This document shows, piece after piece, positions 867 to 9,098 of a stretch of DNA of 29,548 nt. The DNA is from Candidatus Aenigmatarchaeota archaeon. GTDB lineage: Archaea > Aenigmatarchaeota > Aenigmatarchaeia > QMZP01 > QMZT01. A model generated the notes under the pieces. That model was not told the origin of the DNA. It ran no database searches and saw nothing but the letters and a program-made list of their open reading frames with translations. The stretch lies in contig JAZGEG010000010.1 of NCBI GenBank assembly GCA_036478655.1, forward strand, positions 1-29,548, read 5' to 3'. The position numbers were made by a program, and so were the translations under genes. Positions within the stretch are counted from its first letter, which is position 1. Every line of letters starts with the position of its first letter.

Positions 867-982
867 GTATAGAATATAGATTTTTGGATTAAAAAATTCA
901 CCTCAACAGCAAAGATTTTTATTCTTTAGGTTCATATTTATTCTATTGATATTTTTGTGCTCGTTAAAGGGGGGTGTGTTTG

Positions 983-3223
983 ATGGAAAAAGAAGTTAAG
1001 GTTGATGTGGAGTTGGCGAAAAATTTGGGACTTACGGAAGAGGAGTTTGATAAAATAAAGGAATTGCTCGGGAGAGAACCGAATTTCACCGAACTGGGGG
1101 TCTTCTCGGCCATGTGGTCTGAGCATTGCAGCTATAAAAATTCACGCAGGCTGTTTACACAGTTTCCCACCAAAGGCAAACAGGTATTGGTGGGCGCGGG
1201 GGAAGAAAATTCTGGAATCATTGATATAGGAGACGGTCTCGGGGTTGCCTTTAAGATAGAATCGCACAACCACCCCTCAGCAGTGGAACCTTTTGAGGCC
1301 TCAGCCACGGGCATCGGCGGATGCTTAAGGGACATATTTACAACAGGGGCAAGGCCTGTCGCTGGTCTGGCTGCATTGAGGTTTGGAAGTCTGGATAACG
1401 AAAGGGTTAAGTTCCTGTTTAAAGAGGTCATCAGGGGGTTGGCTCATTACGCCAATACAGCGGAGGTTAATGCGGTTGGCGGGGATGTCTATTTTGACGA
1501 GAGTTATGAAGGCAATCCCTTGGTTAACGCCTTTGTTGTGGGTATAGTAAAACATGATAATATTGTCAGGGGAGCTGCGTACGGGGTGGGAAATCCCGTA
1601 TATTACATAGGAAGGGATACGGGCAGAGACGGTGTAGGAGGAGCGAGCTTTGCTTCCAAGGAAATCACCGAGGAGTCTGATTCTGAGAAGGGAGCAGTTG
1701 CCATAGGCGATCCAGAGCTAGGGAAACGTTTAAGAGAGGCTTGTGTGGAGTTGATAGAAAAGGGGCTTGTCGTGGGGATGCAGGATATGGGAGCGGCAGG
1801 ACTTACATGCTCTTCCTGCGAAACGGCTTCAAGAAGCGAGACGGGCATTGAGATAGACGTTAGCTTAGTTCCCCAGTGCGAAAAGGGGATGACACCTTAT
1901 GAAATCCTCTTGTCCGAATCTCAGGAGAGGATGCTCGCCATCCTAAAGGAGGGTGAGGAAGAAGAGGCACTGGATATTCTGAAGAAGTGGGATGTCAATG
2001 CGGTAAAGATCGGAAAGGTAACAGATGATAAGATAATGAGGGTCAAGGAAGCGGGCGTGGTGGTTTGCGAGGTCCCCGCAGAAGCCCTGACGAAAAAGGC
2101 GCCCCTGTATGAGAGGGAATCTGCCGAACCTGCCTACTTGAAGGAAACGCAAAAGCTGAACCGCGAATCTTTGAAAGAACCGGACGACTTCAATGAAGTC
2201 TTACTACAATTACTTAACTCCCCTACTATTGCCAGCAAAGAATCGGAATATAAAAAATTCACTGCTCTGGACAAAGACGAAGTTAAAGTGGGTGCAGGCT
2301 CAGACGCGGCTGTGGTTAAAGTTAAAGGAACCAACAAGGCCTTGGTAATAAGCGTGGATTGCAACGGCAGGTATTGCTATCTGAATCCCCACCATGGAGC
2401 GATGATGACAGTAGCCGAGGCGGCGAGAAATATAGTTTGCGCCGGCGGAAGACCGCTTGCAATTACGGACGGTTTAAATTTTGGAAACCCGATGAAGCCT
2501 GAAAACTACTGGCAGTTTGAAAAGTGCATAGAAGGGCTTTCCAAGGCATGCACCGTCTTAAAGACGCCAGTTATCAGCGGAAACGTAAGCTTCTATAATG
2601 AAAACCCCAAGGGGGCGGTAGACCCAAGCCCGATAGTGGGCATGGTAGGGCTGATAGAAGATGCGGATAAATACGTTACCCAGGATTTTAAGAGCGAAGG
2701 CGATTTAATAGTCCTTTTGGGTGAGAACAAAGCCGATCTCTCAGGCAGCGAATACCTATACTTGGTGCACAACCAAAAAAAGGGCAATCCCCAGATAGAT
2801 ATGGACATGGAAAAAGCGGTTCAGGAAGCATGCCTTGAAGCGATCGGATCAGGTATTATCAATTCCGCCCATGATTGTTCTGAGGGGGGATTGGCAGTGA
2901 CGCTGGCTGAATCATGTATTTCAAACGCAAGCCAGATGTTGGGTGCGGTGATAAAACTGGACAGCCTGAAAAGCAACGATATAAGGCTGGATGAGATTCT
3001 GTTTGGTGAATCCCCTTCGAGGATAATGGTTTCTCTGAACAAGGATAACCTAAGCGCTTTAGAGGAGATAGCAAAGAAACATTCCATCCCTTATTGCATT
3101 TTGGGTGAAGTCAGCGGTGAAAAGCTCGTAATTCAATGCAAAGAAAAAACGATAACAGACCTTCCCTTGACGAGGCTAAGCGATACTTGGAGGGAGGCGA
3201 TTCCCTCTAGACTAGGGAAATAG
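983..3223 (+). CDS. purL: Phosphoribosylformylglycinamidine synthase subunit PurL (small, single-subunit type)
   Basis: Motifs MWSEHCSYK, KIESHNHPS, DMGAAGLT, SESQERM, GNVSFYN and HDCSEGG. I chose the ATG at 983 (G-rich SD-like run just upstream) over the track's GTG at 974. Confidence 0.96.
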   Translation: MEKEVKVDVELAKNLGLTEEEFDKIKELLGREPNFTELGVFSAMWSEHCSYKNSRRLFTQFPTKGKQVLVGAGEENSGIIDIGDGLGVAFKIESHNHPSAVEPFEASATGIGGCLRDIFTTGARPVAGLAALRFGSLDNERVKFLFKEVIRGLAHYANTAEVNAVGGDVYFDESYEGNPLVNAFVVGIVKHDNIVRGAAYGVGNPVYYIGRDTGRDGVGGASFASKEITEESDSEKGAVAIGDPELGKRLREACVELIEKGLVVGMQDMGAAGLTCSSCETASRSETGIEIDVSLVPQCEKGMTPYEILLSESQERMLAILKEGEEEEALDILKKWDVNAVKIGKVTDDKIMRVKEAGVVVCEVPAEALTKKAPLYERESAEPAYLKETQKLNRESLKEPDDFNEVLLQLLNSPTIASKESEYKKFTALDKDEVKVGAGSDAAVVKVKGTNKALVISVDCNGRYCYLNPHHGAMMTVAEAARNIVCAGGRPLAITDGLNFGNPMKPENYWQFEKCIEGLSKACTVLKTPVISGNVSFYNENPKGAVDPSPIVGMVGLIEDADKYVTQDFKSEGDLIVLLGENKADLSGSEYLYLVHNQKKGNPQIDMDMEKAVQEACLEAIGSGIINSAHDCSEGGLAVTLAESCISNASQMLGAVIKLDSLKSNDIRLDEILFGESPSRIMVSLNKDNLSALEEIAKKHSIPYCILGEVSGEKLVIQCKEKTITDLPLTRLSDTWREAIPSRLGK

Positions 3224-3283
3224 GGCAAAGCGCTGCGGAGCACGCGAAGAAGAGGTTTTGATTCTGTTTCCGGACATGCAAGC

Positions 3284-3292
3284 TTTTAAATA
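3284..3292 (+). promoter_or_regulatory. Archaeal TATA-like box upstream of the CxxC-x17-CxxC gene
   Basis: TTTTAAATA about 60 nt upstream of the ATG at 3353. An AAGGAG SD lies at about 3338-3343. Confidence 0.45.
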
Positions 3293-3352
3293 GCAAGTTG
3301 AAAGATAAAGGACATATAATAGAATAAATCATAAAAAAAGGAGTTAATTGGT

Positions 3353-3529
3353 ATGGCGTTTAGAGAAAGGCACTCCGATAGAAGAGAAGGCAGGAGAGAC
3401 TTCGGGCCCAGAGAGATGCACAAGGCAGTCTGTGCTGATTGTGGTCAAGAATGTGAAGTTCCGTTCAAACCCACAGAGGGTAGGCCAGTCTTTTGTAGAG
3501 AGTGCTTTGCCAAGAAGAGAAGAGAGTAG
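3353..3529 (+). CDS. CxxC-x17-CxxC domain small zinc-binding protein (58 aa)
   Basis: Hand translation: MAFRERHSDRREGRRDFGPREMHKAVCADCGQECEVPFKPTEGRPVFCRECFAKKRRE*. It has exact C-x2-C-x17-C-x2-C spacing, the family motifs 'VPFKP' and 'GRPVFC', and an AAGGAG SD. It is below the ORF-track length cut-off. Confidence 0.93.
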   Translation: MAFRERHSDRREGRRDFGPREMHKAVCADCGQECEVPFKPTEGRPVFCRECFAKKRRE

Positions 3530-3652
3530 ATTTGCAGTACATCGAGAATCGATAATTCTGTAGATACACTTAAGATCGGTCTTAGTTGCAGGTATGCCGT
3601 TTCTTCTAAAGGGGGGGACAAATTTTATAAAACACCTAACGATAGAATAGGT

Positions 3653-4045
3653 ATGAAAGTTCTCATCATATGTGGTAGCGAATCCGATCTCGAGGTCGCA
3701 AGGAAGGCAGAGGACGTTTTGAAGGACAACAAGATTCCTTTCGAAATCCACATCTCCTCCGCTCACAGGGATCCCGGGGGAACGGAGAAGCTCGTCAAGC
3801 ACGCGGATGCGGATGTGATAATAGCTGTGGCGGGTTTATCCGCGGCACTGCCCGGGTTCATCGCCTCGCACACGGACAAGCCCGTTATCGGCGTGCCTGT
3901 GAATGTCAAGCTTGACGGCCTGGACTCTCTGCTTTCGGTCATGCAGATGCCAAGCGGGGTTCCGGTCGCGACCGTGGGGATAGACAACGCGAAGAATGCG
4001 GCGCACCTAGCGATCAGGATTCTCAAGCTCAAGAAAGGTGAGTGA
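3653..4045 (+). CDS. purE: N5-carboxyaminoimidazole ribonucleotide mutase / AIR carboxylase catalytic subunit
   Basis: Motifs [35 protein letters not shown] and NAAHLA. Confidence 0.95.
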
Positions 4046-5071
4046 ATGGGAATTACATACAAGGACGCGGGCGTTGATATAGATGCGGGAAAAGAAGCTG
4101 TTGACAGGATAAAGGATTACGTGAAGCGCACGTTCAACTCAAGCGTTGTTCTCGGCGTAGGTAGCTTTGGCGGAGCGATAAACACGGAAAGGATAAAGGG
4201 CATGAAAGAGCCTGTTCTTGTCGCGAGCATAGACGGCGTGGGAACGAAGCTGAAGGTCGCTTCTGCTATGGGCAAATGGGATACTGTCGGAAAGGACATA
4301 GTAAATCACTCTGCAAACGATGTACTCGCGGTTGGAGCGGAACCATTTTATTTTCTTGATTACATAGCCACTGAAAAGATGAAGCCGGAGATAGTTGAAC
4401 AGATCTTGAAGGGAATGTCAGAGGCGTGTTCAGAACTCGGGATGCCCCTCATAGGAGGAGAGATCGCCGAGATGCCCGGGGTGTATGTGAAAGGAGAGCA
4501 TGACATAGTTGGTTGTATAAACGGGATAGTTGAAAAGAGGATGGTGATCGATGGTTCCGGGATAAAGGAGAACGACGCCTTGATAGGGCTGCATTCAACC
4601 GGCCTTCATACAAACGGCTTTTCCCTTGCAAGGAAGGTCCTCCTCTCGAAATACAACGTTAAGGATTTTGTTGAAGAGATAGGGATGACCGTGGGCGAGG
4701 CGCTTCTTACACCTCACAAAGCATACGTGAACGAAGTGAGGGAACTCAGGAAGGATTCCGAAATCCGCGGGATCGCGCACATAACAGGAGGGGGCCTGGT
4801 TGAAAACGTTCCAAGGATAATCCCCCATGGCCTTGGTGTCGAAATTAACAAGAAAGAGATTCCGGTTCTGCCAATTTTCAGGCTCATACAGAAAGAAGGC
4901 GACGTCCCCGAGGAAGACATGTGGAGGACCTTCAACATGGGCATAGGGCTGGTTTTGGTTTTGCCTGGGGAACAGGCGGAAAAAGCGGTCACTAAACTTA
5001 AATCCCTGGGAGCGGACGCTTCCCTGATAGGGAAAGTGGTTAAAGGAAGCGGGGTGAAGTTCAATGGATGA
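4046..5071 (+). CDS. purM: Phosphoribosylformylglycinamidine cyclo-ligase (AIR synthetase)
   Basis: Motifs TYKDAGVDI, DGVGTK, GGEIAEMPG, GLHTNGFSL, AHITGGG and TFNMGIG. It abuts the purE stop. Confidence 0.96.
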   Translation: MGITYKDAGVDIDAGKEAVDRIKDYVKRTFNSSVVLGVGSFGGAINTERIKGMKEPVLVASIDGVGTKLKVASAMGKWDTVGKDIVNHSANDVLAVGAEPFYFLDYIATEKMKPEIVEQILKGMSEACSELGMPLIGGEIAEMPGVYVKGEHDIVGCINGIVEKRMVIDGSGIKENDALIGLHSTGLHTNGFSLARKVLLSKYNVKDFVEEIGMTVGEALLTPHKAYVNEVRELRKDSEIRGIAHITGGGLVENVPRIIPHGLGVEINKKEIPVLPIFRLIQKEGDVPEEDMWRTFNMGIGLVLVLPGEQAEKAVTKLKSLGADASLIGKVVKGSGVKFNG

Positions 5072-6038
5072 TGATGCTATAAGTAAACAGCTCGAAAACA
5101 CCCTGGAGAAAACGGACTTCCCTGAACTCGGGAGCAAATACGAGGGGAAGGTAAGGGATAACTACACGCAGGAGGACAAAAGGATTATAATAACCACCGA
5201 TAGGATTTCTGCCTTTGACAGGGTTCTGGGGACGATCCCCTTCAAGGGACAGGTCCTGAGCCAGCTGGCTTCTTTCTGGTTCGATAAAACAAAACATCTC
5301 GTTAGGAATCACATGATCGATTCACCCGACCCGAACGTCATGGTGGTGAGTGAATGCAAGCCCATTCCCGTGGAGATGGTGGTCAGAGGCTACATAACGG
5401 GCGTCACTAAAACATCAGCATGGTACAACTATTCCAAGGGCGTGAGGAATTTCTGCGGGGTCCGCTTGCCCGAAGGGCTGAAAAAGGACCAGAAATTCGA
5501 TAGCCCGATAATCACACCGACCACGAAGGCTGAGCACGGTGAGCACGACAGGTCGATATCCCCCGAAGAAATCATTTCAGAAGGCATCCTTTCAAAGGAA
5601 ATGTGGGAAAAACTCAAGGAAATAAGCTTCAAGCTCTTCGGCTTTGGAGTGGAGTGGGCGAAGAAGAACGGCCTGATACTCGTGGACACCAAGTACGAGT
5701 TCGGCCTTATAGGTGATGAAATAGTTCTAATGGATGAGATACACACGCCCGACTCCTCGAGGTTCTGGTTCGCGGACGCGTATCAGGAACTCTTCAAAAA
5801 AGGTGAGGAGCAGAGGAAGCTCGACAAGGAATACGTGAGGACATGGCTGGCTGAACAGGGTTTCATAGGTGACGGAACCCCTCCAAGACTCACGGATGAA
5901 GTGCGAACGGAAGCCGCTAAGAGGTACATACGGGCATACGAGATCATAACAGGGGAGAAGTTCATGGTTGTTGAAAAACCCGTTACTGAGAGGATAAAGG
6001 AAAACCTAAGGGTAAAAGGATATCTGAAAGGAGGATGA
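5064..6038 (+). CDS. purC: SAICAR synthase
   Basis: Motifs GKVRDNY, TDRISAFD, VRGYITG, TPTTKA, DTKYEFG, DEIHTPDSSRFW and LDKEYVR. Overlaps purM by 8 bp. Confidence 0.96.
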   Translation: MDDDAISKQLENTLEKTDFPELGSKYEGKVRDNYTQEDKRIIITTDRISAFDRVLGTIPFKGQVLSQLASFWFDKTKHLVRNHMIDSPDPNVMVVSECKPIPVEMVVRGYITGVTKTSAWYNYSKGVRNFCGVRLPEGLKKDQKFDSPIITPTTKAEHGEHDRSISPEEIISEGILSKEMWEKLKEISFKLFGFGVEWAKKNGLILVDTKYEFGLIGDEIVLMDEIHTPDSSRFWFADAYQELFKKGEEQRKLDKEYVRTWLAEQGFIGDGTPPRLTDEVRTEAAKRYIRAYEIITGEKFMVVEKPVTERIKENLRVKGYLKGG

Positions 6039-6042
6039 TGTT

Positions 6043-7377
6043 ATGGCGATACACCCGATCGAGTACCGGTATTATTCGGATGATATGAAGAAGGTTTTTG
6101 ATGAGGAGACGAAATTGCAGACATGGCTTGATGTTGAGTCTGCGCTGGCGAAAGCCCAAGCGAAGCTCGGGAACATCCCGAGGAAGGCTGCCGTAAAGAT
6201 CGTGAAGAAGGCAAACATAAAATACGTCAAGCTGAAAAGGGTTAAACAGATAGACAAACAGATACACCACGACCTCATGGCGATGGTGAAAGCTCTGACA
6301 GAAGTTTGCGGCAGCGATGGTAAATACGTTCATTACGGTTCGACCTCTTACGACATTGAAGACACAGCACTCGCCCTCCAGCTGAAGGGGGCAATCGAAA
6401 TCATCGAGAAGGACTTGAAAGCGCTGAAAAAGGTCCTGGTTGGCCTGACAAAGAGATACAAGAAAGTGGTATGTATCGGGAGGACGCACGGCCAGCACGC
6501 GGTCCCGACAACGTACGGCCTGAAATTCGCAAACTGGCTGTGCGAAGTCCAGAGGGGCACTGACCGCCTGGAACAGGTGAAAAAGCGAATTCTTGTCGGG
6601 AAGATGACAGGAGCTGTAGGGACGCAGGCGACATTCGGGAAGAACGCGAGGGAATTGCAGAGACTTGTCATGAAAGACCTCGGACTGGAATCTGTCATGG
6701 TCTCCACCCAGGTTGTCCAGAGGGACAGGCATGCGGAACTCGTTTTCGCTCTTGCCCTAATAGGCTCGACCATGGAGAAGATCGCCAAGGAGATAAGAAA
6801 CCTCCAGAGAACGGAGATAGCGGAGGTTCTGGAGAAGTTCGGGGAGAAGCAGGTCGGGAGCTCGACCATGCCGCACAAGAGGAACCCATGGAAATCAGAA
6901 AACGTCTGCTCGCTCGCCAGGGTCCTGAAATCGCACGTTTCCATAGCCCTCGATAACAACCCGCTCGAGCACGAGAGGGACCTCACTAATTCCGCTAACG
7001 AGAGGATAATCTTCCCTGAGAGTTTCATGCTCCTTGACTTCATGCTGAGGAGGCTGACAGGGATTCTTGAGAACCTCGAGCTCCACCCGGAGAACATAAG
7101 GAGGAACCTCGACCTGACCAAAGGCCTTGTGATGAGCGAACACTTCATGATAGGCATGGTGAAGAAAGGGATCGGGAGGCAGGATGCGCACGAGATCCTC
7201 CGGACATCAGCGATGGAATCTTACAGGAAGAACGTCCCCCTGAAACAGATACTCATGAAGAACCCGGTCGTTAAAAAGAGGTTCACGAAAAGGGAGATGA
7301 GCCATTACCTCGACCCTAAAAACTATATCGGCACCGCGATCCAGCAGGTGGACAGCGTTCTGAGGGCGGTCAGGTAA
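6043..7377 (+). CDS. purB: Adenylosuccinate lyase (archaeal type)
   Basis: N-terminus AIHPIEYRY, GRTHGQHA, signature GSSTMPHKRNP and HERDLTNS. GGAGG SD upstream. Confidence 0.96.
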   Translation: MAIHPIEYRYYSDDMKKVFDEETKLQTWLDVESALAKAQAKLGNIPRKAAVKIVKKANIKYVKLKRVKQIDKQIHHDLMAMVKALTEVCGSDGKYVHYGSTSYDIEDTALALQLKGAIEIIEKDLKALKKVLVGLTKRYKKVVCIGRTHGQHAVPTTYGLKFANWLCEVQRGTDRLEQVKKRILVGKMTGAVGTQATFGKNARELQRLVMKDLGLESVMVSTQVVQRDRHAELVFALALIGSTMEKIAKEIRNLQRTEIAEVLEKFGEKQVGSSTMPHKRNPWKSENVCSLARVLKSHVSIALDNNPLEHERDLTNSANERIIFPESFMLLDFMLRRLTGILENLELHPENIRRNLDLTKGLVMSEHFMIGMVKKGIGRQDAHEILRTSAMESYRKNVPLKQILMKNPVVKKRFTKREMSHYLDPKNYIGTAIQQVDSVLRAVR

Positions 7378-7417: not shown

Positions 7418-8635
7418 TCATAGATCCACATTCCCTTCCCCCGGCATGTTTTGAGGTTTTAGGGCGCTTGGCTCTTTTTCTGGGAATTCTTGTCGCTTGT
7501 AATGTTCTTCTAATTTTTCAAGGGCACTGTGACGGATTTGATTTGCCCTTTGTCTTGATAGCTCCATTATTTTTCCAATTTTTTCTAGCACATAATCATG
7601 AAAATGATAAAGTTCTATAGCTCCTTTTTCTCTTTCATCTGTTAAAGTAGAAAGGGCCTCCAGAACCATTTTCTTGGATTCCTTCGAAATGTACAGTTCT
7701 TCCGGATCTTTAGGTTCTTCCATTAATGATGCCTTGATACCGTTTTTTACTAATATCGGTTCATATGATTCTTGGTCCTTAACTGAGAATCCTGTTTCAT
7801 GCGCGTCCGTACCGAATAAATCTCCAACTTCTTCCAGAGAAAGTTCTATTGAATGTTCTCCTCCATTCAAGAAACCTTCATATCCTTCCCGGGACATTTT
7901 GGGTATCAGGCAGTATGGTTTGGTTTCACCAGGATCCTTTATTTCCCCTTCAAGTTCAAAAATATTTACTGGTTCACTATCCAGAGATTCTATCTTAATT
8001 AGATTTATAATTTCAAAAATTTTTTCAACTTTTTTTCTTGCTGATCTAATTAATTTTCCACCTGTCCCTTTAATTTCAATCGTTTCAGTAATTTCTTCTA
8101 TATTTGGATCATGCTCAAGTTTATGGAATAGGTATTTGCATGACTTTTCTAGTCTTGTAACACGAGACAGAAGTTTTTGGGGGATATGGACAATTAATCC
8201 ATTCTCATTTGTTTCATCGATAGCTTTTCTAATCCGCTGTCTTGCGTAAGAACCTAATTTTACTCCTATATCCGGGTCAAAATTTTCCAAACCTGCAATC
8301 GATCCTACTGCACCCCCCTGCTTAAGATCATCAAGTTCTGGTGTTATGAATTCACCCATTCCGCAGTAATCATATCGCCTTCCGGAAAATAACTTATGAA
8401 CACCCTCAGCTATACTATCTGCAAGACCCTGTAGGTCTATTAACATGGCTTTCCGAATTTGTTCTTCAGAGAGTCCAGCATCTTTTCTTACCTCTCTTAT
8501 ATTATAATTAAATCTTTGCAAAGCCCATCCGTATATTCTTGATATTTCATTGCGACTTGATTCAGGATTTTGTTTCACGTAAGCCAAAAGTTCTTTATGC
8601 CTCCCATTCCAATATTCATTACCATATTTCGGCAT
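7418..8635 (-). CDS. Sigma-70 family protein, FliA/WhiG (sigma28)-like, with an N-terminal extension and an insertion between regions 3 and 4
   Basis: Region 2 is DDLKQGGAVGSIAGLENFDPDIGVKLGSYARQRIRKAIDE (compare the FliA pattern DLxQxGxIGL...xD...GxxFxTYAxQRIRGAxxDE). Region 3 is IVHIPQKLL...LEHDPNIEEI...ESLD. Region 4 is EALSTLTDEREKGAIELYHFHDYVLEKIGKIMELSRQRANQIRHSALEKL. The match is recognised from memory of the family, not from a search. Confidence 0.82.
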   Translation of the reverse strand: MPKYGNEYWNGRHKELLAYVKQNPESSRNEISRIYGWALQRFNYNIREVRKDAGLSEEQIRKAMLIDLQGLADSIAEGVHKLFSGRRYDYCGMGEFITPELDDLKQGGAVGSIAGLENFDPDIGVKLGSYARQRIRKAIDETNENGLIVHIPQKLLSRVTRLEKSCKYLFHKLEHDPNIEEITETIEIKGTGGKLIRSARKKVEKIFEIINLIKIESLDSEPVNIFELEGEIKDPGETKPYCLIPKMSREGYEGFLNGGEHSIELSLEEVGDLFGTDAHETGFSVKDQESYEPILVKNGIKASLMEEPKDPEELYISKESKKMVLEALSTLTDEREKGAIELYHFHDYVLEKIGKIMELSRQRANQIRHSALEKLEEHYKRQEFPEKEPSALKPQNMPGEGNVDL

Positions 8636-8638
8636 TTT

Positions 8639-8683
8639 ATCACTTTTTAATTACAAATTGATAATAAAATCTATATTTATAAA
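8639..8683 (-). promoter_or_regulatory. TATA-like box and archaeal-style SD upstream of the sigma-like gene
   Basis: On the minus strand, TTTATAAATA lies at 8683-8674 and AGTGAT at 8644-8639, just before the ATG. The AT-rich tract is nearly symmetric, so the TATA orientation is ambiguous. Confidence 0.35.
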
Positions 8684-8693
8684 TAAACCAGGC

Positions 8694-9098
8694 TCACTCG
8701 AATACCCGGACGCTCACGTTTCTCGTTCTCGGTCCGTCAAGCTCCACAAAGAACAGGTTCTGCCATGTCCCGAGGTTAAGGGATGAATTCTCGATCGGAA
8801 GGACAAGATAGGGCTTTATTATCGAGGATATTATGTGGGCGTTCGCGTTCCCTTCCCCCAGCCTGTTGTGTTCGTATTTCCCCTCCCTGGGGATGAGCCT
8901 CAGGATGGTTTTCCTGAAATCCTCCAGGAATCCGCTCTCCTTCTCGTTCATTATCAGGCACGCGGTCGTGTGCGGGGTGAAAACAAAACACACCCCGTCC
9001 TTGGCCTTCGATCCCCTCACTGCCTCCTCAACTTTATCCGTTATTTCAAAGAGATCAAAAGTCCCGCTGGTCTGGATCGAGAAGGTTTTTGAAAGCAT
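8694..9098 (-). CDS. yjbQ: YjbQ / UPF0047 family protein (secondary thiamine-phosphate synthase)
   Basis: Motifs HTTACL..NE, YEHN, NANAHI and LGTWQNLFFVELDGPRTR. Confidence 0.93.
   Translation of the reverse strand: MLSKTFSIQTSGTFDLFEITDKVEEAVRGSKAKDGVCFVFTPHTTACLIMNEKESGFLEDFRKTILRLIPREGKYEHNRLGEGNANAHIISSIIKPYLVLPIENSSLNLGTWQNLFFVELDGPRTRNVSVRVFE

What the first reader, a model, noticed from the sequence alone, without database searches (positions are those of the whole stretch)
7418..8635. Intact bacterial-type sigma28/FliA-like sigma factor in an archaeal chromosome
Seen: an uninterrupted 405-aa ORF with colinear sigma-70 regions 2, 3 and 4, between an archaeal-type purB and yjbQ, on the same stretch as aEF-1alpha and archaeal aaRSs. 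Region 2.3 reads SYARQRIR, the FliA-type 'YAxQRIR' rather than the housekeeping 'YAxWWIR'. The gene is visibly more AT-rich than its neighbours and has archaeal-looking TATA/SD signals. Established: archaea initiate transcription with TBP/TFB, not sigma. Sigma region 2.2 docks on the beta' clamp coiled-coil, whose archaeal homologue in Rpo1 binds TFE and Spt5. Inference: this is a horizontally acquired sigma that is still maintained. It could be repurposed as a DNA-binding regulator, could be a clamp-binding modulator of archaeal RNAP, or could act on a bacterial partner's RNAP if the organism is a symbiont.
Basis: partly seen in the sequence, partly recalled or inferred. Interest (0 to 1): 0.88.

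Follow-up and report, generated by a model that had tools for sequence, protein, structure and literature searches.

The report
Divergent sigma-70-like gene in DPANN archaeon
A small symbiont-type archaeon (Aenigmatarchaeota) carries an intact but highly divergent relative of the bacterial sigma-70 transcription factor in a variable chromosome slot; such genes are already reported in these archaea, but this one has a previously undescribed N-terminal domain that related archaea also attach to other borrowed bacterial transcription parts.

Summary
Window 7418-8635 (-) is an uninterrupted 405-aa sigma-70 family ORF. Evidence: Sigma70_r4 and TIGR02937 above cutoff, r2.2-r3.0 aligned to RpoS/SigA, and a predicted fold matching sigma chains. 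It has SYARQRIR at aa 129-136, is AT-rich (GC3 0.26 against 0.52-0.71 in neighbours) and lies between purB and yjbQ in an archaeal (Aenigmatarchaeota, DPANN) contig.

It is not a FliA member (74.6 bits, cutoff 189.6). No bacterial donor can be identified: among 1.84 billion cluster representatives only one protein is close (P0005, 34% identity). P0005 sits at the same end of the pur cluster in an independent assembly of a congener, so a chimeric join is unlikely. Three other congeners have purM in that slot.

Sigma70_r2 genes occur in 34 of 91 genomes of the order. None has a bacterial beta-prime, and the window's genome has TBP and TFB.

New here: a ~58-aa N-terminal helical module with no Pfam or PDB match. 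Related archaea carry it in tandem arrays on sigma-like proteins, on sigma-54-type AAA+ activators and on wHTH proteins.

Sigma-70 genes in DPANN are published (Castelle 2021), and this scan holds 252 earlier notes on the topic from other DNA. The mechanism is inferred, most likely a DNA-binding regulator.

The parts
7418..8635 (-). Whole sigma-70-like ORF, 405 aa (P0001)
8447..8623 (-). N-terminal ~58-aa helical module (aa 5-63), a lineage-specific repeat domain with no Pfam family or PDB fold match
   Evidence: Seven copies in P0007 and six in P0012. Fused to bEBP AAA+ proteins in G034 and G037.
8198..8446 (-). Sigma domain 2 (aa 64-146). Region 2.1 is divergent and carries a loop at aa 85-100. 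Regions 2.2-2.4 are recognisable.
   Evidence: 84.8 bits against a generic sigma profile over aa 100-240
8228..8251 (-). SYARQRIR (aa 129-136), region 2.3 with the W-W pair replaced by Q-R
7997..8188 (-). Sigma domain 3 (aa 150-213), three helices
   Evidence: The orthologue P0005 reaches Sigma70_r3 at 25.4 bits (GA 25.3).
7721..7996 (-). Acidic ~90-aa insert between sigma 3 and sigma 4 (aa 214-305). Mostly low-confidence or disordered, but holds the motif best conserved with P0005 (IELS.E....LFG.D..E.GF.VK..ES.EP).
   Evidence: The generic sigma profile does not match aa 241-300.
7484..7720 (-). Sigma domain 4 (aa 306-384) with the region 4.2 HTH
   Evidence: 72.7 bits
8636..8693 (-). Upstream intergenic region with TATA-like TTTATAAATATA (8672-8683) and SD-like GTGAT (8639-8643). 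GTGATAAAATG is identical in the L014 orthologue.
   Evidence: These are sequence features only; no transcript data.
6043..7377 (+). purB, convergent left flank (native; 86-89% aa identity to congeners)
8694..9098 (-). yjbQ, co-directional upstream flank (native; 87% aa identity to congeners)

Best explanation
The gene encodes an accessory, archaeal-adapted derivative of a bacterial sigma-70 factor, not a working sigma in the bacterial sense. Its layout is: a lineage-specific N-terminal helical module, sigma domain 2 (region 2.1 divergent, melting tryptophans lost), sigma domain 3, a ~90-aa acidic insert, and sigma domain 4 with an intact HTH. It sits as a single-gene, AT-rich cassette in a variable slot between the pur cluster and yjbQ of an Aenigmatarchaeota chromosome. 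It appears to be read from an archaeal TATA/SD context. The cell has TBP, TFB and archaeal RNAP but no bacterial core enzyme. I therefore infer that the protein acts as a sequence-specific DNA-binding transcription regulator, using the sigma 4 HTH and possibly sigma 2/3. The N-terminal module would serve as a shared regulatory or targeting domain. The same module heads sigma-54-type AAA+ activators, wHTH proteins and other sigma-like proteins in related archaea. Shown: family identity, fold, chromosomal context, patchy distribution, fast divergence under constraint, absence of a bacterial core, and the sharing of the module. Inferred: expression, DNA binding, and the regulator role.
For: Sigma identity. 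Native locus in an independent assembly of a congener, where the sigma gene overlaps the purM 3' end by 47 nt. Slot polymorphism (purM in that slot in G001 and G003). Constraint: the pair is colinear over its full length at 34% identity with no stops in AT-rich DNA. NG86 gives dN 0.59 and dS 2.98, against flanks with dN 0.08 and dS 1.05-1.18. No bacterial beta-prime above cutoff in 0 of 91 genomes of the order. Three TBP genes, one TFB and a single archaeal Rpo1 in the same genome. Region 4.2 is well preserved (34.3 bits Pfam, 72.7 bits generic profile). Module shared with bEBP, wHTH and sigma-like proteins in 14 of 371 genomes of the phylum. A second orphan bacterial transcription DNA-binding protein (Sigma70_r4 plus RNAP alpha-CTD) occurs in the same genome. 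Sigma-70 genes in DPANN are reported with mis-binning ruled out: PMC8204110.
Against: There is no direct evidence of expression or DNA binding. The region 4.2 HTH is not conserved in the only orthologue: P0005 has an 8-residue insertion in the turn and no Pfam r4 hit. That weakens sigma 4-mediated DNA binding as the conserved function. Region 2.2, the core-binding helix, remains recognisable (D-L-x-Q...G...FDP..G.K..SYA). A pure DNA-binding regulator would not obviously need to keep it. The best-conserved segment is the insert, whose role is unknown. Three congeners lack the gene, so it is dispensable.
Confidence: 0.45

Rival explanations
1. Hybrid initiation or clamp factor. The retained region 2.2 helix docks on the clamp coiled-coil of the archaeal Rpo1, the homologue of the beta-prime clamp helices. 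The protein would then modulate or redirect archaeal RNAP, competing with TFE or Spt5.
For: The region 2.2 signature is still recognisable in both P0001 and P0005. Sigma homologues persist in 34 of 91 genomes of an order that has only archaeal RNAP. TFE is barely detectable in the order, and no match was found in this 78%-complete genome.
Against: Key beta-prime-contacting positions are changed: by my own alignment to E. coli sigma-70 numbering, the E407 equivalent is G and the N409 equivalent is A (alignment). Sigma presence does not clearly anticorrelate with TFE: by my count, 4 of 14 TFE-positive genomes and 30 of 77 others carry r2. The Pfam TFE model is too insensitive here to settle this. 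No complex modelling or biochemistry was possible. An earlier follow-up in this scan priced the same idea for Woesearchaeota sigmas at 8/100 (e1-2566095).
Confidence: 0.12
2. Cargo of the flexible genome (virus, plasmid or defence-island derived). A cassette exchanged among DPANN lineages and dropped into a recombination hot spot, serving the element or an arms race rather than host housekeeping regulation.
For: GC3 is 0.26 against 0.52-0.71 in the flanks; the orthologue has 0.46 against 0.66-0.76. The pair's dS of about 3 exceeds the flanks' 1.05-1.18, which suggests the two copies are older than the surrounding DNA, that is, allele replacement. The gene is present or absent among congeners. 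The adjacent pur genes are themselves mosaic: purM is 39% and purL 31% identical between congeners. The relative P0012 lies beside Bro-N, RHH/DUF3368 and other variable genes. The best non-family hit lies on a phage-like contig.
Against: It is a single gene with no integrase, no att-like repeats and no neighbouring element genes. The only PADLOC hit is a generic sigma match to MzaA. The phage database gives one weak hit. The start context GTGATAAAATG is conserved between congeners, which suggests a settled chromosomal gene.
Confidence: 0.2
3. Decaying or functionless remnant of an old transfer.
For: It is dispensable in three congeners. Region 2.1 is divergent and the melting residues are lost. 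It evolves fast: dN is 7 times that of the flanks.
Against: The two copies are 66% different in protein yet both keep uninterrupted 371-405-codon frames in AT-rich, stop-prone DNA. They keep the same domain order and conserved motifs. Crude dN/dS is about 0.2. The domain models are confident (pLDDT above 90).
Confidence: 0.1
4. Effector aimed at a bacterial partner's RNA polymerase (symbiont hypothesis).
For: A bacterial-type core-binding helix is retained, and DPANN archaea are generally symbionts (PMC8204110).
Against: The first 20 residues (MPKYGNEYWNGRHKELLAYV) show no obvious hydrophobic signal sequence, by inspection only. No secretion genes are adjacent. Known DPANN hosts are archaea (PMC8204110). 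The N-terminal module is shared with AAA+ activators and wHTH proteins, which look like cytoplasmic regulators.
Confidence: 0.05
5. Assembly or binning artefact (chimeric join of foreign DNA).
For: There is a sharp composition step at both borders. Read-level verification was not possible.
Against: Both flanks are syntenic with congeners, so two joins would have to return to the same locus. An independent assembly from another run (L014) has the orthologue physically overlapping purM at the same end of the pur cluster. The rest of the contig is uniformly archaeal.
Confidence: 0.03

Closest known systems
Sigma-70 homologues of DPANN archaea (fam00359 of Castelle et al. 2021, PMC8204110)
   Same: A bacterial-type sigma-70 family protein encoded in a DPANN archaeal genome that also has TBP, TFB and archaeal RNAP. 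There is no anti-sigma and the function is unknown. Here the family is common in the order (34 of 91 genomes).
   Different: The paper stresses Woesearchaeota; this organism is an Aenigmatarchaeota. P0001 is much more divergent than its order-mates: 161.9 bits against 185-261 bits on a generic sigma profile. It carries an extra N-terminal module and a ~90-aa insert, and has only one close relative in 1.84 billion representatives.
Bacterial group 3 sigma factors, FliA/WhiG (sigma-28; TIGR02479; PDB 6pmi, 1rp3)
   Same: It has regions 2, 3 and 4 with no region 1.1 or non-conserved region. Region 2.3 has a YA.QRIR-type motif without the two tryptophans. FliA_WhiG is the best-scoring NCBIfam model, and region 4 aligns to FliA chains.
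   Different: The score of 74.6 is far below the cutoff of 189.6. The protein is 405 aa rather than about 240, with an extra N-terminal domain and a sigma 3-sigma 4 insert. There is no bacterial core enzyme or flagellar regulon. The tree gives no affiliation.
Bacterial enhancer-binding proteins with variable N-terminal sensor domains (NtrC/PspF type), as found in Aenigmatarchaeota
   Same: The N-terminal module of P0001 occupies the position that sensory or regulatory domains hold in bEBPs. In G034 and G037 it is literally fused to Sigma54_activat + AAA_lid_14 + HTH_8 proteins, two of which have an intact GAFTGA.
   Different: P0001 has a sigma-70 output, not an AAA+ one. No sigma-54 DNA-binding domain was found in those genomes.
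MzaA, the sigma-70 family component of the MZA anti-phage system (NF041931, PDLC02203)
   Same: A sigma-70 domain embedded in a longer protein of the accessory genome. It gives weak hits (E 7e-9 and 3.3e-9).
   Different: The score of 35 bits compares with a cutoff of 800. The match is confined to the generic sigma part, and no Mza partner genes are adjacent.

Membership tests
Sigma-70 family (TIGR02937; Pfam r2/r3/r4) | Superfamily HMM above the curated cutoff | tested here: met
   TIGR02937 scores 58.9 bits against a cutoff of 42.9, spanning aa 99-377.
Sigma-70 family (TIGR02937; Pfam r2/r3/r4) | Region 2 (PF04542) present | tested here: inconclusive
   P0001 scores 19.5 bits, below GA 24, over profile positions 22-61 only. 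However, aa 101-188 align to regions 2.2-3.0 of RpoS/SigA at E 2.4e-12. The orthologue P0005 reaches 34.9 bits. Region 2.1 is divergent.
Sigma-70 family (TIGR02937; Pfam r2/r3/r4) | Region 4 HTH (PF04545) present | tested here: met
   34.3 bits against GA 24.1, aa 327-375. Not met in the orthologue P0005.
Sigma-70 family (TIGR02937; Pfam r2/r3/r4) | Sigma 2-sigma 3-sigma 4 helical domain architecture | tested here: met
   AF2 model with pLDDT above 90 in all three domains. Foldseek top hits are SigA, RpoS and SigB chains, probability 1.0, E 3.5e-8, about 400 aligned columns.
Sigma-70 family (TIGR02937; Pfam r2/r3/r4) | Binds bacterial core RNAP and directs promoter-specific initiation | not testable with these tools
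   No cognate partner exists: bacterial beta-prime (TIGR02386) is above cutoff in 0 of 91 genomes of the order, including this one.
FliA/WhiG sigma-28 (TIGR02479) | Family HMM above the curated cutoff | tested here: not met
   74.6 bits against a cutoff of 189.6. WhiG scores 71.7 against 343, and FliA PRK06986 59.5 against 201.
FliA/WhiG sigma-28 (TIGR02479) | Region 2.3 motif YA.QRIR instead of YA.WWIR | tested here: met
   SYARQRIR at aa 129-136. That this motif is FliA-typical rests on my own knowledge of E. coli FliA, not on a tool result.
FliA/WhiG sigma-28 (TIGR02479) | Phylogenetic placement within the FliA/WhiG clade | tested here: inconclusive
   In a FastTree of 137 sigma domains, P0001 is a long branch at the base of a 56-leaf clade (support 0.75). 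No labelled FliA references were available, and IQ-TREE timed out.
DPANN sigma-70 homologues (Castelle 2021, fam00359) | Sigma-70 domain protein encoded on a contig whose other genes are DPANN-archaeal | tested here: met
   Archaeal markers lie on the contig. EF-1alpha is 73-83% identical to named Ca. Aenigmatarchaeota MAGs.
DPANN sigma-70 homologues (Castelle 2021, fam00359) | Membership of the published protein cluster fam00359 | not testable with these tools
   The family's members or HMM are not in the held supplements.
MzaA (MZA anti-phage system) | Equivalog HMM above cutoff and Mza partner genes adjacent | tested here: not met
   35.1 bits against a cutoff of 800. The PADLOC hit covers only the generic sigma part. 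The neighbours are purB and yjbQ.

The most novel reading that the evidence does not exclude
The ~58-aa N-terminal module is a dedicated adaptor through which Aenigmatarchaeota and related DPANN connect borrowed bacterial transcription parts to the archaeal transcription machinery. Those parts are sigma-70-like proteins and sigma-54-type AAA+ activators that still carry GAFTGA. In P0001 the retained region 2.2 helix would contact the archaeal RNAP clamp. That would make it a real hybrid bacterial/archaeal initiation or regulation system.
Probability: 0.08. Interest if true: 0.9.

Novelty: new variant of a known kind. Interest (0 to 1): 0.5.

Why it matters
How archaea that initiate transcription with TBP and TFB use bacterial sigma factors is an open question, raised in print in 2021 and still unanswered. 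This locus does not answer it, but it adds three useful handles. First, it gives a positionally orthologous pair that shows which segments stay constrained without a bacterial core: the N-terminal module, regions 2.2-2.3 and a motif inside the insert, but not the region 4.2 HTH. Second, it identifies a compact, confidently folding N-terminal domain shared by sigma-like proteins, sigma-54-type activators and wHTH proteins in one archaeal class, which suggests a common partner or signal. Third, it shows that these genes can behave as exchangeable cassettes in a hot spot. The module and the minimal 405-aa protein are practical targets for pull-downs with archaeal RNAP and for DNA-binding assays.

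Tried and rejected
1. Read-level junction check. Only one served run matched; it held 231 bp of yjbQ and a spurious 42-nt match, so no verdict was possible.
2. More subfamily members. Scans of metagenome contigs and genome contigs with the P0001+P0005 alignment found none. The word-indexed search with P0001 found only itself plus two weak hits. The same search with the P0012 repeat array found only itself.
3. Phylogeny. IQ-TREE with bootstraps timed out. The FastTree was unresolved for P0001, and P0005 lost half its columns, so no clade claim is made.
4. Recent phage origin. The phage database gave one weak 26%-coverage hit. Rejected as unsupported.
5. Defence-system membership. PADLOC gave only a generic MzaA sigma match. 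Rejected.
6. Mobile-element borders. No flanking direct or inverted repeats beyond chance-size matches.
7. 'Sigma replaces TFE' test. The Pfam TFE model is too insensitive in this order (14 of 91 above cutoff at 22-31 bits) and no anticorrelation was seen. Inconclusive.
8. Is the module a duplicated sigma 4 HTH? hhalign probability 1.1%. Rejected.
9. Module fold assignment. Foldseek against PDB gave a best E of 3.4. The Atlas structural neighbours are wHTH proteins at TM 0.5-0.63, which means little for 60 residues. Pfam HTH_24 scored 19.6 bits, below GA. HTH-like remains only a lead.
10. Second region-4.2-like motif in the insert (sibling note e1-5299425). The generic sigma profile gives no match in aa 241-300. 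Only a short LEEVGDLFG resemblance is visible.
Full report
OBSERVATION

The window holds an uninterrupted 405-codon frame at 7418..8635 on the minus strand. It belongs to the sigma-70 family.
- Pfam Sigma70_r4 scores 34.3 bits (gathering score 24.1).
- Sigma70_r2 scores 19.5 bits, below the threshold, and covers only profile positions 22-61.
- The NCBIfam superfamily model TIGR02937 scores 58.9 against a cutoff of 42.9.
- phmmer against PDB sequences aligns aa 101-188 with regions 2.2-3.0 and aa 305-380 with region 4 of RpoS and SigA (E 2.4e-12).
- The motif SYARQRIR is at aa 129-136, with Q-R in place of the two tryptophans of region 2.3.
- An AlphaFold2 model built on a 100-row alignment has mean pLDDT 78.2, with values above 90 in the N-terminal part and in sigma domains 2, 3 and 4. 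Residues 228-306 are mostly below 50.
- Foldseek returns SigA, RpoS and SigB chains at probability 1.0 over about 400 columns.

The gene is strongly AT-rich: GC 0.37 and GC3 0.26, against GC3 0.52-0.71 in ten neighbouring genes. The neighbours are purB and yjbQ. The contig also carries EF-1alpha, archaeal-type GluRS, Arch_glmU and ValRS, all above their cutoffs.

ORGANISM

The genome is 847 kb in 116 contigs and 77.6% complete. EF-1alpha is 73-83% identical to MAGs named Candidatus Aenigmatarchaeota, several from cold seeps. The only public run sharing exact words is a cold-seep metagenome. The genome has three TBP genes, one TFB and one archaeal Rpo1.

IS IT REALLY PART OF THIS CHROMOSOME?

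Reads were not available, but synteny answers the question. Both flanks align at about 81% nucleotide identity to congeners G001 and G003.

The single close homologue found by an exhaustive phmmer search of 1.84 billion representatives is P0005 (371 aa, E 9e-31, 34% identity). It lies on an independently assembled 14-kb contig (L014). There it is convergent with purM-purB-purC-purE-purQ-purL-purS and overlaps the purM 3' end by 47 nt. The purB and purC of L014 are 86% identical in protein to the window's, so L014 is a congener. Both sigma genes are preceded by the identical GTGATAAAATG. A chimeric join is therefore very unlikely.

A VARIABLE SLOT

In G001 and G003 the space between purB and yjbQ holds purM, co-directional with purB, and no sigma gene. 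P0001 finds nothing in three same-genus genomes (92-95% complete) or in 19 further same-family genomes. In the window, purM lies upstream of purC-purB instead and is only 39% identical to the congeners' purM. purL is 31% identical between the window and L014.

The two sigma genes differ far more than their surroundings:
- amino-acid identity: 34% for the sigma pair, 86-89% for the flanking genes
- NG86 dN: 0.59 for the sigma pair, about 0.08 for purB and purC
- NG86 dS: about 3 (saturated) for the sigma pair, 1.05-1.18 for purB and purC

Both copies are compositionally foreign, but to different degrees (GC3 0.26 and 0.46). A synonymous divergence well above that of the flanks suggests the two copies are older than the DNA around them, meaning cassette or allele replacement at a hot spot. 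The different base compositions also inflate dS, so this remains an inference. No att-like repeats or element genes mark the borders.

CONSTRAINT

The pair is colinear from end to end, including the insert, and both frames are open despite 66% amino-acid difference in stop-prone AT-rich DNA. Crude dN/dS is about 0.2. The best-conserved 45-residue window (44% identity) is aa 271-315, which spans the C-terminal part of the sigma 3-sigma 4 insert and the start of sigma 4; the next is aa 91-135, covering regions 2.2-2.3 (38%). The region 4.2 HTH, well preserved in P0001, carries an 8-residue insertion in P0005, which has no Pfam r4 hit.

NOT A FliA, AND NO DONOR

FliA_WhiG is the best NCBIfam model but reaches only 74.6 bits against a cutoff of 189.6. 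Apart from P0005, all 5,740 hits are at the generic sigma level (E of 2e-13 or weaker, about 30-38% identity over some 90 residues). The three nearest I looked up lie on a phage-like contig of small unannotated ORFs, a short contig, and a 14-Mb eukaryotic chromosome. The phage database gives one weak hit.

A FastTree of 137 sigma domains leaves P0001 on a long branch at the base of a 56-leaf clade (support 0.75). The 21 Aenigmatarchaeota sigmas included split into at least 13 lineages, so no single archaeal clade appears. The tree is weak and the background set was chosen by similarity to P0001.

THE LINEAGE BACKGROUND

Sigma70_r2 is found above cutoff in 34 of 91 genomes of the same order and in 23 of 45 genera. 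Many of these are full sigma-70 proteins scoring 185-261 bits on a generic profile, against 161.9 for P0001. None of the 91 genomes has a bacterial beta-prime above cutoff. All have the split archaeal Rpo1 at about 260 bits against a cutoff of 963.5.

Castelle et al. 2021 (PMC8204110) already reported sigma-70 genes in DPANN. They ruled out mis-binning, found no anti-sigma factors and left the mechanism open. This scan holds 252 notes on the topic from at least 208 genomes. One follow-up (e1-2566095) reported the same pattern of same-place sigmas far more divergent than their neighbours. None of those notes shares sequence with P0001 or P0012.

WHAT IS NEW: THE N-TERMINAL MODULE

Residues 5-63 form a discrete unit. 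P0001 and P0005 have one copy. P0007 (835 aa) has seven and P0012 (775 aa) has six in tandem, each followed by a degenerate sigma 2-like stretch and a good Sigma70_r4.
- The consensus is ..E.W..R...L..YLR.NP....(variable)...FY...IN.AK.DAG..EE.I.
- It matches no Pfam family above threshold; HTH_24 scores 19.6 bits against GA 21.9.
- It folds confidently into four short helices (pLDDT 93.8).
- It has no PDB fold match (best E 3.4).
- It is not detectably related to sigma 4 (hhalign probability 1.1%).
- Atlas structural neighbours are wHTH proteins at TM 0.5-0.63, which is only a lead for so short a domain.

The module occurs in 14 of 371 genomes of the phylum (11 of 170 genera), all in one class. 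In G034 and G037, tandem copies precede Sigma54_activat + AAA_lid_14 + HTH_8, the architecture of bacterial enhancer-binding proteins. Two of these keep an exact GAFTGA. No sigma-54 DNA-binding domain was found in those genomes, which are 71-82% complete. Elsewhere the module precedes a wHTH, a weak sigma 4, or stands alone in arrays. It therefore behaves as an N-terminal domain attached to DNA-binding or transcription outputs, in the position that sensory or regulatory domains hold in bacterial activators.

MECHANISM

Shown: family, fold, context, distribution, constraint, the absence of a bacterial core enzyme, and the sharing of the module.

Inferred: the protein is made from an archaeal-type promoter. 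A TATA-like box at 8672-8683 sits about 43 nt upstream of the ATG, and an SD-like GTGAT lies at 8639-8643. It would then act as a DNA-binding regulator, with the N-terminal module as a regulatory or targeting domain (confidence 0.45). A second orphan protein in the same genome, Sigma70_r4 fused to a bacterial RNAP alpha-CTD, fits the idea that these archaea reuse bacterial transcription DNA-binding modules as free-standing parts.

Points against this reading: region 4.2 is not conserved in P0005, while the core-binding region 2.2 stays recognisable. That keeps the clamp-binding rival alive (0.12). A TFE anticorrelation test was inconclusive because the Pfam model barely detects TFE in this order. 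The remaining readings and their confidences are:
- cargo of the flexible genome: 0.2
- relic: 0.1
- effector against a bacterial partner: 0.05
- artefact: 0.03

VERDICT

This is a real feature of a kind already published and often seen in this scan. It is not a FliA and not a fresh bacterial import. Its particular value lies in the minimal, fast-evolving subfamily, its variable slot, and the undescribed shared N-terminal module. I class it as a new variant of a known kind, interest 0.5.

Noticed in passing
G000 contig C44 (L033:4224-5096, minus strand), outside the window: A 291-aa protein beside PolB combines Sigma70_r4 (27.9 bits, GA 24.1) with a bacterial RNA polymerase alpha-subunit C-terminal domain (PF03118, 39.3 bits, GA 23.8). 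It is a second orphan bacterial transcription DNA-binding protein in the same archaeal genome.
   Followed up: partly
L028:3070-5541 (-) in G034; L030:175-2181 (-) and L029:1-1848 (+) in G037: Archaeal proteins with the bacterial enhancer-binding architecture (Sigma54_activat up to 183 bits, AAA_lid_14, Fis-type HTH_8). They are preceded by tandem copies of the same N-terminal module as the sigma-like protein. Two keep an exact GAFTGA loop. No Sigma54_DBD was found in those genomes.
   Followed up: partly
window 974-6038 compared with L014 and L009: The pur cluster is mosaic among congeners. purB and purC are 86-89% identical in protein, but purM is only 39% and purL 31% identical between the window and L014. 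purM also sits at a different position: upstream of purC in the window, downstream of purB in G001, G003 and L014. This suggests xenologous replacement within the operon.
   Followed up: partly
G000 contigs C96, C61, C108: There are three separate TBP genes, each with two TBP repeats, in an 847-kb genome with a single TFB (C48).
   Followed up: no
L016:8001-10328 (P0012, GCA_053535175.1): The six-module sigma-like relative is divergently transcribed from rtcB, with archease about 3 kb downstream of it. The layout recalls bacterial rtcR-rtcBA, where a sigma-54 activator sits divergent from rtcB. Bro-N and RHH/DUF3368 genes lie on the other side.
   Followed up: no
L122:2668-4137 and L122:4198-6246 (G340 contig C91): Two adjacent ORFs of 490 and 683 aa carry three and six tandem copies of the module. 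Neither has a recognisable effector domain; the only hit is a weak AbiEi_4 match.
   Followed up: no
order-wide: TFE (PF02002) is above cutoff in only 14 of 91 genomes of the order, at 22-31 bits, and is not found in the window's genome. TFE is either very divergent or often missing in this lineage.
   Followed up: no
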